A stretch of 64,000 bases of DNA. Origin: Octopus sinensis. Its lineage: Eukaryota. The stretch lies in contig NC_043008.1 of NCBI RefSeq assembly GCF_006345805.1, forward strand, positions 75,764,001-75,828,000. The letters are read 5' to 3'. Of this stretch, positions 41,215-49,490 are shown in pieces (position 1 is the stretch's first letter; every line of letters begins with the position of its first letter). The notes beneath the pieces are model-generated. The model did no database searches. It was not told where the DNA came from and worked only from the letters and a program-made list of their open reading frames with translations. Position numbers and translations under genes: made by a program.

Positions 41215-42125
41215 AGATGACTTCTACTCTAGATTTGTTGTGCCCTGTACTCACGTACACATATTTATATATGCATGTATATATACATGTAGATGTAGGT
41301 ACGTACATATATGTATGTATGTATGTAAAAATGTGTTTTATTTATTAAATTGCATGACGGAGCGCCCTCGCGTCGTTTCGTTTCCAAGTAACTTTTATAT
41401 ATAATTATGACGCGAAACTCTATAACCCTTTGCTTGATCTTCCCTTCCTTCCTATCTGTCTTCCTCTTTGCCTGTCTCTCTCCTTCGTATTTTTCACCTT
41501 TTCTGGTTTCCTTTCCTCTCTATCTTTCTCTCTCTTACTCCTCCTCATCTCTCTCACATCCGGGTCGACCAACTTCCTTTCGCTGGCGGCCTCCTACAAT
41601 TGAACACGCTTTTTTCCTGCGCTCTTGAATTTTTCCTCGTCTAGGCTAAAAAAGGCCCTCATTGTTTGTTTCCATATTTGTTTTTATTACTTGTACTGTA
41701 TTTTTTGTATTTGTATTTTTATTTTGTACTTGTTTTTTTACTTGTATTTTTATTTGTATTATTTTTACGTCCTGTTTTTGTCACACTTTTTTCTTTCCTT
41801 GTTTTTACCCCTCTGCAAAGGAATTTTATTTAATTCTTTCACAGGAAGGGCTAGTTAGACGAGTCGTGTTCTGTCCTTACCTTCGAAACACGCATGGAGT
41901 TGAACTAGGGACAGCTGATGAAGAGGAATTTTCCTTGTGTTTTTTGTCTAGTACTCTGTTTTTTCGTTGTTAAAAGAAGGTCCGTTTCCATGTTTGTTTT
42001 TACGTTTTCGTTTCTCGTTGAGTTCTACGTCTATTTGTGGTGTCCTGTACTCACGTATATATATTTATATATGCATGTATATATACATGTAGATGTAGGT
42101 ACGTACATATATGTATGTATGCATA
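41215..42125 (+). mobile_element. ORF-less element with direct terminal repeats carrying a permuted hammerhead
   Basis: Direct repeat 41244-41320 vs 42044-42120; homologous to 48401-49584 (shared TTTTTACCCCTCTGC and GTAGGTACGTACATATATG). Confidence 0.65.
41865..41926 (+). ncRNA. Non-circularly permuted hammerhead ribozyme motif (variant A)
   Basis: CGTGT-T-CTGTCCTT .. CCTTC-GAAACACG .. AGGGACAG-CTGATGA-AGAGG. Confidence 0.75.
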
Positions 42126-43319
42126 TATTTTATTTATATATATATATATGTATATATATATATATATATATATATATATATATATATATATATTTAATAG
42201 GTATGACAGTGTATACACGGAGAGAAGAGCACCACGTGGACTTCTTACATGCTAGAAAGGCAGTCAAATCCCAAACCACGAAAAGAGCACTTTGCTTGTA
42301 AGCGAGATGGACACTTCAAGGAATAAAAATATCAGTTAAATCTACACCAATGAGTTTCCCCATTAATAATCAAATAAATCAATTAATTAGTCAATTAATT
42401 CATTAATTAAGCGTCTATGGCTCGTCAGTAGCGTCGCTGAAGAATGTATAATTATGAAACTACCGAAAGCATAAAGTAAACACATGTGCATTTAGTTCCA
42501 TCTTTATACTTCAAGAATTCAAATCTTACGCCATCAACGAAAGTGCCGAGTCAGAGTAGTACAGCAGTGAATAAATTCAACCGTGTATTATCTGTCCGAA
42601 GAATTTAAGTATATAACTATATAAATACAGGGTAAAAATATTAAATTAATAATTTTATGTCAGTGGTTAGCGTGCGTAATAAAAGATAGAAGACATAAAT
42701 ATCTTTATAATACAATAGTGTATAAGAATTTATATACGGAGAGAAGACAACCATGTGGACTTCTTGCAAGCTAGAGAGAGCAGTCAAATCACAACCACGA
42801 AAAACCATTCTTATAGCACGTTACATGTAAGTAAGCTGGACACTTGAATGAATAAAAATATACCCATGAGTTTCACAATTATACCCATGGGTTTCACCAT
42901 TAATAATCAAATAAATCAATTAATTGATTAATTAACCATTTGTTGCTCGTCAATAGAATCGCCAGAGAGATATTTACGTCTTCTAACTTTTATTACGAAT
43001 GTTAACCACTAGTACAAATTATACTAGTGGTTAGCATTTAATAAGTTTAACCCTGAATTTATATAGTTATATATAATTATATATATATATATATATATAT
43101 ATATGAAAAAACAAGTCAAGATAGAAAATGTTAAAATAACTTTATAAAGAACATTTCAGTACCGGTTTCAGTCATTTGAGACCTTTTAAACTGTAACGAT
43201 TAAATAATTAAATTTAGAAAAATTAAAAGAAAGGTTTTTTAAAAGAATATTTGTATAGTGTTCAAATATAAGTGGCATTTTCCTTGTTTCTGCCTTTCTC
43301 TGTCTCTCTTGTTTACACT

Positions 43320-44025
43320 TGTGGGTTCGAGGTCGAACAACGAAAGTTCATAAGGTCAATTACACAATATTCCCATGTGTCGGAAGGAACAATCAGAAAT
43401 GTTGTCCACGAAAATTTCCTGTAACTGTCATGGTTTTAGGTGTTGTCAGCAATGAAGGGCATGTGATGCCTCGTTACATCTTTCCACGAGCCCTTAGAGT
43501 TAACTCTGCTGCCTACATTGAGGTCCTGGAAATATTTGGTAAGCCCTGAATAGACAGTGTATGCAATAGAAGGCTATGTGTGTTTCTATAAGACTCTGCA
43601 CTGTCAGAGAGAGCTCTAGTAACACAGGAATGGATTGTTGAAAATGTTCATGATCGCATAGCTCCTAACATTTGGGCTAATAATTTCCCTGATCTCAATC
43701 CATTGGACTTTTACATGCGGAGCGTTATTAAGAGAGAGGTCAATGAACACGTCCATAACACCAAAAATTCTTTGAAAGCTGCTATAGTCAGAGTGATATC
43801 CAAAATGGAGCAGGGTCACTTGATTCGAGCATGTAGATGATTTGGATCTCTTATAGAACCTGTTGTTAAAACTGAAGGTGGCTTTATTGAATAACATTAT
43901 AGAAACGAAGGTTTATTTTTCTCCTCATAGCAGTTTTTGATAAATAATGTTATTATTTGTGATTATATATCTGTTTTTTTTATATAAACATAAAACTGTC
44001 CTCAAATATGTTACGCACTCTGTAT
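43320..44025 (+). mobile_element. Tc1/mariner-superfamily transposase relic (DD37D/maT-like)
   Basis: KFPVTVMVLGVVSNEG...YIEVL, WANNFPDLNPLDFY, ending EGGFIE. Confidence 0.8.
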
Positions 44026-45429
44026 ATATATGTGTGTATATGCATATACACACTTATATATATATATATATGTGTGTATATATATATATGTGTGTATGTG
44101 TGTATGTATTAATTCCAAAACAATCTACAATCACCAATATCAGACGTATGCTCATTTGGAGCATAATAATGCCAATACACTTAGATATTCTAGTAACTTT
44201 TACGATACATTACAAAACTATATTCCATGGACTACGTTGTATATTATATATAATTGAACATCTCTCAACTGTTTTTCTCCAGATTACTATTATTGTCTCT
44301 CAGTTATTTGTTACATCCATATTTCGCTTTTTTTGTTTTCATATGTGACACGTTTAACTAATGTCTGTAACAGGAGAGTCGCACAAATAATCAGTTCGTA
44401 TGCGATGTTATGTGATTTTTAAATGAAGACTCCTCCCATAATTGCCATGTGTTAGACATGGATATCTATGCAAGTAGCCATTCCATGCTACTTTTTTCTT
44501 ATATTGTTAGTAGTATTTATTTCTTGGAATCCTAATGGATATATTTCACTTAGTTCAAGACATCATCAGTTCCAAAAAGGTTATGCTTCACCATGTGGTT
44601 ATATGATAAACAGAAAGATAGAGATAGAGACAGCAATGCAATAAATGGTATTATATAACATGTAACTACAGCTAGACACCATAATATAATATTGAATGTG
44701 TATCACATGAAAGAAAAGTTTCAGAAATGACCATGTTTCACTACAGATGTAAAACACATTTGATATATTTAAAAAAACGTATACATATTACTCCAAACGT
44801 TATGTTATTGTATAAATATTCTTCATAAGATATCACATAACATATTTTCAAAGAGTAATATTTTTCATATCGTTTGCAAACGTTTTCCATTTTCTTCTTT
44901 CTCAGGCATTACCCATGGTTATTACATCCTGTCTTATTGTTTCAGTTGCTGAATATGTCGCAGACATTTTTCAGCAACAAAATTTCACGAAACTCTGTAC
45001 CAAATGTATAAATGATGTGTTAGAGGAAAACATCTTAACCTCAGAAGTGATGTAGTACTTTCCGCCATCCATTAAAAAAAAATGTTTCTCTGGTTTTCTT
45101 ACAACATTTCCTGTAATCTCATTTTTTATTGTGAGACTCGGTAAACTTGCATTCACTTTAGGTACCTTAAAGGATTACATAACACATACATTCTAATAAT
45201 AAATACATATAAACATGCATAATATGCACATTAACAGATATATGTATATGAATGTGTTTATATTTATAAGGTGTATAAATATATATATATATATATATAT
45301 ATATATATATGGTTTTATTAAGTAATGTCGAGTTTTACAATTCTGTAAATAATAATAGTAGCATTTTATACGATTAAAGCTGATAGCGATCACCGCGCAA
45401 TGACTAACAAAAATAGTCTATTAATGGGG

Positions 45430-48220: not shown

Positions 48221-48596
48221 TATATATATATATATATATATATATATATAATGCATAAAAATTTAATGGTTTACAACTAGTAACTTACTCACTTTTACGG
48301 TAATCGTTAGGTATTTAGGTATATGTCAAATGAAAGACGGAAGATGGAATATACGAGAATATATTATTAATCATTTGCCATATATATATATATATATATA
48401 TGTTAATAAAATAGAACATATGCATATATATAAACATATATGTACGTACCTACCTCTACATGTACATATACACGCATATATGTGTACAGGACACCAAAAA
48501 GACGTCGAACACATAGAGAGACGAAAAACATAGACACAAACCAAGGAACAAGACAAGCAAAAAAAAGAGATACAGGACAATAAGCACAACGAAAAA

Positions 48597-48658
48597 TCCC
48601 CTTCTTCAGTCGCTAATGTTTCATCTACTAAACGTTTCGAAGGATAAAAGCGAGACGT
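48597..48658 (-). ncRNA. Non-circularly permuted hammerhead motif (variant C, copy 1)
   Basis: ACGT-C-TCGCT .. TCCTTC-GAAACGT .. AGCGA-CTGAAGA-AGGGGA. Confidence 0.75.
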
Positions 48659-49428
48659 ATACTTCGAAGAAAACTTCCTTCCTGCGAAAAGCAAATCAAT
48701 TAAAATTCTGAGATCTTTTCGCAGAGGGGTAAAAAAAGCAAGACGGTAACGACAGTACAAACATATAAACAGTAAAAATATATATATATAAACAGTGGAA
48801 AAATAAATATATAACAGTGAGAGACAGGACAAGGAGAACAAGATAAGAAGGGCTGTTAACGCCAGACGAAAAAAGTATTGCAAACGCTGGATTATAGTGG
48901 ACGACGAGAGAGAAAGAATGTCGACCAGTAGCCTTAGAAGGCGGGCGAGAAAAGACAGGATAGCAGTTACGACGGAAGTATCGTCGCAGATGGACGACGG
49001 GAATGGGGGAGGAAGAGGAAGAGAGAGAAGAAGGGGAATGGTGCGAGGAGACCATGAAGAACGATGAGGGGGAGAGAGAGAGGAAGAGACAAGTTAAGTG
49101 AGGGAAAAAAGACGAAAAAGGGAATGGGAGAGAAAGAAGGAAAGATGCAGAGTCGCGTGAGAGTTAATATCAAGGCTAACTTGATAAACAGAACAATCTT
49201 ACTTAATAGGGTGCGTGCGTTTAGTCGTATAATGTGTTAATAAAATAGAACATATGCATATATATAAACATATATGTACGTACCTACCTCTACATGTACA
49301 TATACACGCATATATGTGTACAGGACACCAAAAAGACGTCGAACACATAGAGAGACGAAAAACATAGACACAAACCAAGGAACAAGACAAGCAAAAAAGA
49401 GATACAGGACAATAAGCACAACGAAAAA

Positions 49429-49490
49429 TCCCCTTCTTCAGTCGCTAAGGTTTCATCTACTAAACGTTTCGAAGGATAAAAGCGAGACGT
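49429..49490 (-). ncRNA. Non-circularly permuted hammerhead motif (variant C, copy 2)
   Basis: Same as 48597-48658 with one change in a linker. Confidence 0.75.

What the first reader, a model, noticed from the sequence alone, without database searches (positions are those of the whole stretch)
41865..49490. Strand-swapped (non-circularly permuted) hammerhead ribozymes with covarying stems in repeat termini
Seen: four intact motifs (41865-41926 +, 47349-47412 +, 48597-48658 -, 49429-49490 -) and one decayed (60025-60088) hold all three hammerhead core strands in the order [stem III'-NUH-stem I'], [stem II'-GAAA-stem III], [stem I-CUGANGA-stem II]. Stem sequences differ between variants yet keep pairing. 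Stem III: CGUGU/ACACG, UUUCAU/AUGAGG, ACGU/ACGU. Stem I: CUGUCCUU/AGGGACAG, UUGUCG/CGACAA, UCGCU/AGCGA. Cleavage triplets: GUU, AUA, GUC. Established: types I, II and III are circular permutations (ABC, BCA, CAB); CBA is not, so it needs a pseudoknotted fold or a dimer. Inference: a conserved self-cleaving module of a retroelement family. I recall non-circular ('swapped') hammerheads being reported in the recent literature, so novelty of the topology must be checked; the link to these repeat families may be new.
Basis: partly seen in the sequence, partly recalled or inferred. Interest (0 to 1): 0.9.

Follow-up and report, generated by a model that had tools for sequence, protein, structure and literature searches.

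The report
Rewired hammerhead ribozyme of Naiad retroelements
A self-cutting hammerhead RNA motif, with its strands in an order not found in the papers searched, is present in about 17,000 copies of small mobile repeats in this animal genome and also sits at the tail of Naiad jumping genes, a group reported to lack a standard hammerhead; cutting itself is untested.

Summary
The motifs are real (4 in the window against 0.03 per shuffle). Their S-G-C block order is the non-circular class that Eckert et al. 2023 (PMC10085705) found only in metatranscriptomes. Three patterns give 7,923, 8,664 and 461 genome matches (controls 5, 9, 0). Copies lie in non-coding 686-862-nt tandem units with Penelope-type ends. 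Stems I and III covary. In the 8,664-match family only 39 have GG after the core. The fold therefore seems to be opened at A9|G10.1, which Eckert assumed cannot be broken. The same motif lies about 720 nt behind a Naiad-type reverse-transcriptase frame (L209). By eye, 9 of 54 published Naiad consensi carry it and 6 carry type CSG (PMC8557442 supplement). Open: cleavage, monomer or dimer, and which enzyme moves the young copies.

The parts
41845..41926 (+). Family A ribozyme: a 41845-49 (upstream stem II strand), b 41851-60 (P0), c 41865-69 (III), H17 41870 (predicted cut 41870|41871), d 41871-78 (I), e 41880-84 (II), GAAA 41885-88, f 41888-92 (III), g 41899-908 (P0), h 41909-14 (I), CUGAUGA 41915-21, then AGAGG
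41240..42125 (+). Family A element, ends approximate: 5'-truncated first 3' module, tail, pyrimidine-rich body, ribozyme, 3' end in (TA)n; period about 800 nt (conserved 3' motif at 41289 and 42089)
47331..47412 (+). Family B ribozyme, somewhat decayed; strand a at 47331-35, predicted cut 47355|47356, GAAA 47372, CUGAUGA 47401
48597..48681 (-). Family C ribozyme, 3' unit; strand a 48681-77, predicted cut 48654|48653, GAAA at 48638, CUGAAGA at 48609
49429..49513 (-). Family C ribozyme, 5' unit, 832 nt upstream; predicted cut 49486|49485
48402..49584 (-). Family C partial-tandem element (about 1.4 units), 5'-truncated, both ends in (TA)n; the 39 next-best genome copies are 99-100% identical over 271 nt
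48677..48730 (-). Hairpin just 5' of the ribozyme whose 3' arm overlaps strand a; a similar hairpin precedes families A and B
60007..60088 (+). Decayed family B ribozyme (CUUAUGA core, broken stem I)

Best explanation
The motif is a working hammerhead ribozyme of the pseudo-LTR of Naiad-type Penelope-like elements and of small non-coding elements with the same build. Strand order: a (5' strand of stem II) - b (P0) - c (III) - NUH - d (I) - 1-5 nt - e (II) - GAAA - f (III) - g (P0) - h (I) - CUGANGA. Each copy is a long hairpin (b-c with f-g) whose loop holds the cut site, d, e and GAA, and whose two feet (a, and h-CUGANGA) grip such a loop. Stems I, II and P0 meet in a second three-way junction. 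SHOWN by sequence: strand order, the four helices, covariation, copy number, Penelope-type ends, position 3' of a Naiad-type RT frame. INFERRED: site-specific cleavage 3' of NUH; the feet grip the loop of a second tandem copy (dimer, about 55%) rather than their own through two U-turns (about 45%); cutting at successive copies frees a unit-length RNA that is reverse transcribed from a site about 250-300 nt past the ribozyme, giving partial tandems; a Naiad or other PLE enzyme moves the non-coding units.
For: Top three column pairs of an all-against-all MI-APC scan are the predicted stem I and III pairs. Stems I/II/III: 93.1% of 741 cells paired, 140 two-sided changes, 0 of 500 shuffles, slid controls 37-52%. 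Upstream helix a:e: 94.4% of 250 cells, 40 two-sided, 0 of 500, slid 35-52%. In 11 subfamily clusters, Watson-Crick pairs: I 53 of 54, III 51 of 55, upstream II 52 of 55, downstream II 21 of 44. P0 >=5 bp in 81 of 88 motifs. Family G: 8,664 matches, 39 with GG after the core, 7,814 matches of the upstream strand with e (controls 9, 3, 78). L232, a metagenome contig: III 8, I 6, upstream II 7, downstream 0. L209: RT frame (RVT_1 E 1e-4) whose best homologues have an N-terminal GIY-YIG (8 of 8 scanned), with CxC and DKA seen in the 2 read; motif about 720 nt 3' of the stop, then (TA)n. 3 of 11 RT loci on C1-C3 have a listed motif 0.9-2.7 kb downstream on the same strand. Two 3' ends about 35-50 nt apart, the PLE tail (PMC11167929 parts 1-2, PMC8557442 section 6). 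Non-circular hammerheads cleave in vitro (PMC10085705, parts 3-5); PLE hammerheads need dimers (PMC4209133, parts 1-2).
Against: No cleavage data. In the window's own families the downstream register is also paired (43 of 44 with G.U) and one pair changes on both sides (C-G to G.U), although three of its four downstream bases were fixed by my search pattern. A GGCU lies 5 nt after the core in 2 of 6 held family G copies. Nested folding does not give the active fold (z -1.1 to +0.7). 5' ends are only about 3-fold enriched near the ribozyme (18 of 70 within 20 nt) and not sharply at the cut (3 of 70 at 12-13 nt). No RT or endonuclease frame was found directly upstream of a window-family motif in 70 pattern-picked loci. 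The window-family model scores Naiad-linked motifs at only 13-15 bits. None of the 55 Naiad RT matches scored is full length; nearly all carry stops, and the longest stop-free match is about 320 aa. The distance estimate excludes a monomer in only 1 of 7 cases. In the Anolis PLE, cleavage was not needed for insertion in vitro (PMC11167929).
Confidence: 0.7

Rival explanations
1. In the window's families the active form is plain type SGC (extra A after CUGANGA, then G10.1-C11.1 and three more pairs), and the upstream strand and P0 are a conserved off-switch that stops re-cutting of monomers or circles.
For: Downstream register paired in 43 of 44 cluster cells; C-G to G.U change in family B; an unpaired base between A9 and G10.1 is typical of metazoan PLE hammerheads (PMC4209133, parts 1-2); strand a overlaps an upstream hairpin, so it could switch.
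Against: Cannot hold for family G (39 of 8,664), L232 or 7 of 9 Naiad consensi parsed by eye, which keep a:e but have no base after the core able to pair with C11.1. The downstream bases can form a small hairpin of their own in several families.
Confidence: 0.17
2. The fold is a non-cleaving or protein-dependent RNA domain, for example the handle by which the PLE protein binds its template; the hammerhead core is a relic or works only on the protein.
For: The Anolis PLE hammerhead cuts only with its protein and is dispensable for insertion in vitro (PMC11167929, part 2); metazoan PLE hammerheads are slow alone (PMC4209133); no sharp 5' pile-up at the cut.
Against: CUGANGA, GAAA, the A15.1-U16.1 pair and an NUH triplet are kept while all stems turn over in the Naiad consensi of several phyla (by eye) and in BLAST-picked copies (core regex matched in 14 of 15 family A and 9 of 15 family B loci).
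Confidence: 0.11
3. Chance words in a repeat, inflated by copy number.
For: Copies are related, so shuffle controls overstate significance; the alignment was selected on the core words.
Against: Compensatory changes between subfamilies in four helices; the same build with unrelated stem sequences in family G, the Naiad-linked family and L232.
Confidence: 0.02

Closest known systems
Type-SGC and type-CSG hammerhead ribozymes (Eckert, Friedrich, Weinberg, Weinberg 2023, PMC10085705; main text parts 1-6 of 8 read, supplement part 2 and search passages)
   Same: Non-circular S-G-C cycle, intact core, short link from stem I to stem II, an extra helix joining the far ends of stems I and II; the authors also note a distance problem when that helix joins stem III directly.
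   Different: Theirs came from metatranscriptomes (SGC) and two metagenome sequences (CSG), none from a eukaryotic genome or retroelement. They assume CUGAnGA and its paired neighbours cannot be separated; here the stem II strand comes from upstream, all three links between blocks are present, and the extra helix uses an upstream strand, not one 3' of stem II.
Naiad clade of Penelope-like elements (Craig et al. 2021, PMC8557442; abstract, passages, section 6, supplement parts 1 and 24 and search passages)
   Same: (TA)n targets, 5' truncation, partial tandems, 30-40-bp tail; N-terminal GIY-YIG, CxC and DKA in the homologues of the RT next to the motif; their 'HHR_half_core' label marks Naiad_Ovul, whose 3' end holds this motif.
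   Different: They report no canonical hammerhead and did not fold the core words. The window's units are non-coding and 686-862 nt; their link to Naiads rests on the shared fold and end structure, not on an attached ORF.
Non-LTR retrozymes and PLE minimal hammerheads (PMC7229834, abstract and outline; PMC4209133, parts 1-2 of 4; bioRxiv 10.64898/2026.07.22.740005, part 1 and passages)
   Same: Non-coding tandem units with one hammerhead each, thought to be moved by PLEs; dimer-dependent cleavage is common.
   Different: Those carry type I hammerheads, are about 170-400 nt, and dimerise through a short stem III. Here stem III is 4-8 bp and extended by P0, so any exchange between copies would run through stems I and II.

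Membership tests
Hammerhead ribozyme | CUGANGA, GAAA and NUH with the A15.1-U16.1 pair | tested here: met
   triplets GUC 31, GUU 23, GUA 15, AUA 15, AUC 4 of 88; the parse required NUH; U-A in 49 of 50
Hammerhead ribozyme | Stems I, II and III around the core, with covariation | tested here: met
Hammerhead ribozyme | Site-specific self-cleavage | not testable with these tools
   Only assembled contigs were on offer
Hammerhead ribozyme | Match to an Rfam model | tested here: not met
   0 hits at gathering score in 6 loci; none among the 150 of 279 rows shown for the window. Expected if the models cover circular orders only (inference).
Type-SGC hammerhead (Eckert 2023) | Block order S, G, C with a short stem I to stem II link | tested here: met
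Type-SGC hammerhead (Eckert 2023) | 5' strand of stem II directly after CUGAnGA (block C unbroken) | tested here: inconclusive
   Possible in the window's families (4 bp, 2 wobbles); not met in family G (39 of 8,664) or L232
Type-SGC hammerhead (Eckert 2023) | Interaction helix formed with a strand 3' of stem II | tested here: not met
   The segment between III and I pairs upstream (P0, 81 of 88); no covarying partner 3' of stem II
Non-autonomous PLE / non-LTR retrozyme | Tandem or partial-tandem units, one ribozyme per unit, no ORF | tested here: met
   periods 686-862 nt; units read
Non-autonomous PLE / non-LTR retrozyme | Variable 5' truncation, fixed 3' end, optional tail, microsatellite targets | tested here: met
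Non-autonomous PLE / non-LTR retrozyme | Type I hammerhead and 170-400-nt unit (retrozyme as defined in PMC7229834) | tested here: not met
Non-autonomous PLE / non-LTR retrozyme | Expressed as linear and circular RNA | not testable with these tools
   contigs only
Naiad PLE | N-terminal GIY-YIG before the RT; CxC and DKA motifs | tested here: inconclusive
   Met in the closest homologues (GIY-YIG first in 8 of 8; CxC and DKA in 2 of 2 read; 39% identity to L209). L209 itself holds only the RT C-terminal 320 aa.
Naiad PLE | Window families joined to a Naiad ORF | tested here: not met
   No such frame within 1.5-4 kb upstream in 70 loci, probed with other PLE fragments and an ORF scan; the joined case is a different family (L203, L209)

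The most novel reading that the evidence does not exclude
A seventh natural hammerhead permutation exists, opened inside the catalytic strand at A9|G10.1. It is the ancestral ribozyme of the Naiad clade across animal phyla (type CSG in nematodes being the same cage opened elsewhere), and it works as a strand-swapped dimer in which each pseudo-LTR is the enzyme for the other, so that only tandem transcripts are cut.
Probability: 0.4. Interest if true: 0.92.

Novelty: new variant of a known kind. Interest (0 to 1): 0.86.

Why it matters
It would move non-circular hammerheads from a metatranscriptome rarity to an abundant part of animal genomes (about 17,000 pattern matches in this one), add a permutation that the published six-order scheme excludes, and answer a stated puzzle: why Naiads seemed to lack a hammerhead. 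Standard descriptors cannot see this fold, so ribozyme counts in invertebrate genomes are probably too low. A motif of about 80 nt can be tested in a day, and the monomer-or-dimer question also bears on the distance problem that Eckert et al. left open.

Tried and rejected
Rfam: no hammerhead hit. Repeat finders were swamped by microsatellites. One search used a structure string that was off by one column; discarded and redone. A strict descriptor found 0 S-G-C motifs in 400 kb of evenly spaced genome; the covariance model found 3 there, so the window is enriched above the genome average. Link to the Tx1/L1-like LINE at 51960-59431(-): rejected, the 60025 motif is on the other strand and belongs to family B. 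Splice-acceptor reading of CAG|G before the ribozyme: rejected, AG is not kept (CGG in family D) while hairpin pairing is. A 1,285-nt unit for family A (L044) was two separate insertions. Search for an autonomous parent of the window families through upstream ORFs and the tail motif: none found. Sequencing runs: no RNA holder listed, contigs only, no information on ends or circles. Lunse et al. 2017 (PMC5785218) is not held, so only its title was seen; one search fetched an unrelated paper. PMC544870 (passages) and PMC13725137 (passages) do not describe a break at A9|G10.1. Not found in print: ten searches returned no paper joining non-circular hammerheads to PLEs or Naiads; most subscription papers are not covered, and supplements of bioRxiv preprints could not be seen.
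Full report
Observation. A descriptor for all six block orders finds four S-G-C motifs in the window against 0.033 per shuffle. The window lies in a 2.72-Gb, microsatellite-rich genome. One motif family in it is nearly identical to the 3' end of two published octopus Naiad consensi, so a cephalopod host is likely (inference).

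What was known. Eckert et al. (PMC10085705, parts 1-6 of 8) define blocks S, G and C, assume they cannot be interrupted, and validate types SGC and CSG in vitro. They state that none of these RNAs was found in genomes of known organisms, apart from one bacterial GCS candidate. The block order seen here is therefore not new, but its home is.

Abundance. The pattern TCGAAA-N16-34-CTGAWGAAGGG matches 7,923 times (reversed control 5). A second family, first met in the flanks of fetched loci (family G), matches 8,664 times (control 9), and a third 461 times (control 0). These are exact-pattern counts and so lower bounds. In 400 kb taken at even steps the strict descriptor found none and the covariance model three.

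The carrier. Held loci show tandem periods of 686-862 nt, no coding frame in the units read, variable 5' truncation, inverted copies, and ends in (TA)n. There are two 3' ends about 35-50 nt apart. This is the optional tail described for Penelope-like elements (PMC8557442 section 6), which in the Anolis element marks two reverse-transcription start sites (PMC11167929 part 2). Family C is young: the 39 next-best copies are 99-100% identical over 271 nt.

Structure. I aligned 50 of the 53 intact-looking copies listed; 6 were picked by BLAST and 44 came from loci fetched by the pattern, so invariance of the core and of the GGG after it is partly built in. In an all-against-all scan the three best column pairs are predicted pairs of stems I and III. 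The shuffles ignore kinship, so I also counted by subfamily: in 11 clusters of two or more copies, Watson-Crick pairs are 53 of 54 for I and 51 of 55 for III.

Two missed helices. The scan also showed an upstream strand (GAAGG or GAGCA) covarying with the 3' strand of stem II (CCUUC or UGCUC): 94.4% of 250 cells, 40 two-sided changes, 52 of 55 Watson-Crick by cluster against 21 of 44 for the downstream register. In 88 distinct parsed motifs the upstream helix has five or more Watson-Crick pairs in 63, the downstream one in 0; a helix P0 of five or more pairs joins the segment before stem III to the segment between III and I in 81. Genome-wide, 4,071 copies keep GAAGG 26-36 nt before CCUUCGAAAC (control 57). 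In family G only 39 of 8,664 have GG after the core, while the upstream strand with e matches 7,814 times (control 78). A GGCU five bases after the core in 2 of 6 held copies is a caveat, but it too would leave A9 and G10.1 apart. In the window's own families both registers can form, so plain SGC is not excluded there.

The Naiad link. Craig et al. (PMC8557442) report that Naiads lack a canonical hammerhead and flag eight families whose core halves lie 35-50 nt apart. I searched their consensus file for the four CUGANGA spellings and folded the passages by eye; places split by a line end are missed, and these parses were not run in a tool. Of 54 Naiad consensi, 9 show the full a-b-c-NUH-d-e-GAAA-f-g-h-CUGANGA build (three Acropora, two Octopus, and four placed only by file part: 9, 12, 12, 19). 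In 7 of these 9 no base after the core can pair with C11.1. Two more are partial (parts 8 and 25). Six, in the parts holding nematode families (13-16), are type CSG with the same extra helix. Within the held data, L209 has a 320-aa RT frame (RVT_1 E 1e-4, below the curated cut-off), the motif about 720 nt after the stop and then (TA)n. Its best homologues are about 900 aa with GIY-YIG first (8 of 8) and CxC and DKA (2 of 2 read). Three of 11 RT loci on C1-C3 have a listed motif 0.9-2.7 kb downstream. A metagenome contig, L232, gives III 8, I 6, upstream II 7 and downstream 0. Against a direct descent of the window's families: no ORF was found upstream of them in 70 loci, their model scores the Naiad-linked motif at only 13-15 bits, and none of the 55 Naiad RT matches scored is full length, 50 of 9,438 candidates having been scored. 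The enzyme that moved family C is not identified.

How it probably works. SGC, CSG and GCS are one cycle opened at different block borders; this form keeps all three links and is opened between A9 and G10.1 (inference from the order). Stems I, II and P0 then meet in a second junction with links of 0-2 nt on the P0 side. A rough distance sum (2.8 A per pair, 6.5 A per free base; recalled values) lets all four helices coexist in one chain only with two U-turns in 6 of 7 cases and not at all in L232. The III-P0 loop of the Naiad-linked family has a 3-nt bulge and tandem GA, which fits the k-turn consensus as I recall it; families B-D have GAA opposite AGUA, a loop-E-like pattern (also recalled). 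A bend suits either a folded monomer or a closed two-fold dimer. Since PLE hammerheads often need two copies (PMC4209133), I favour the feet of one copy gripping the loop of the next, at about 55 to 45. Cutting at successive copies would free a unit-length RNA whose ends are held by III and P0, ready for ligation; copying from the tail site would give the 1.4-unit insert in the window. These steps are inferred. The 5' ends give weak support only: 18 of 70 fall within 20 nt of GAAA (about three times the rate elsewhere), some are deletions or inversions, and 3 of 70 are at the cut. Nested folding does not recover the fold, as expected for a double pseudoknot but not evidence for it.

Novelty. 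Ten literature searches found no paper placing non-circular hammerheads in PLEs or describing the A9|G10.1 break; subscription papers and preprint supplements are not covered. Two unchecked notes of this scan mention a rearranged hammerhead in Naiad-like elements of another genome; they are leads, not support. Verdict: a new variant of a known ribozyme, with a strong sequence case and no biochemistry; interest 0.86.

Noticed in passing
G000 family G, e.g. L126:1915-1980(+), L157:74-137(+): A second, more abundant family (8,664 pattern matches; tandem spacing about 690-780 nt in the listing) with the same fold and no downstream stem II; the cleanest test case for the split core.
   Followed up: partly
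window 51217-51303(-) and 51515-51601(+): Inverted pair of type I hammerhead motifs with a 7-bp stem II and a long loop, next to the 3' end of the LINE.
   Followed up: no
window 34410-34453(+), 32745-32788(-), 13805-13869(+): Further type I hammerhead-like motifs near fragments of C-terminal-endonuclease PLEs; canonical and non-circular types coexist in the window.
   Followed up: no
window 51960-59431(-): Tx1/L1-like LINE pieces (zinc-knuckle ORF1, APE endonuclease, RT, zf-RVT) in partial tandem, 90-94% alike.
   Followed up: no
supplement S5 of PMC8557442, parts 13-16: Six nematode Naiad 3' ends read by eye as type CSG hammerheads, a type known from two metagenome sequences only.
   Followed up: partly
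L128, L130, L116, L151, L066: Inversions and internal deletions with breakpoints within about 15 nt of the predicted cut site.
   Followed up: partly
G000:C25:19674538-19674656 and L118:100-160(-): A 33-nt tandem repeat carrying CCUGAUGAAGG and CAGCCGAAAC, possibly a minimal hammerhead array of another family.
   Followed up: no
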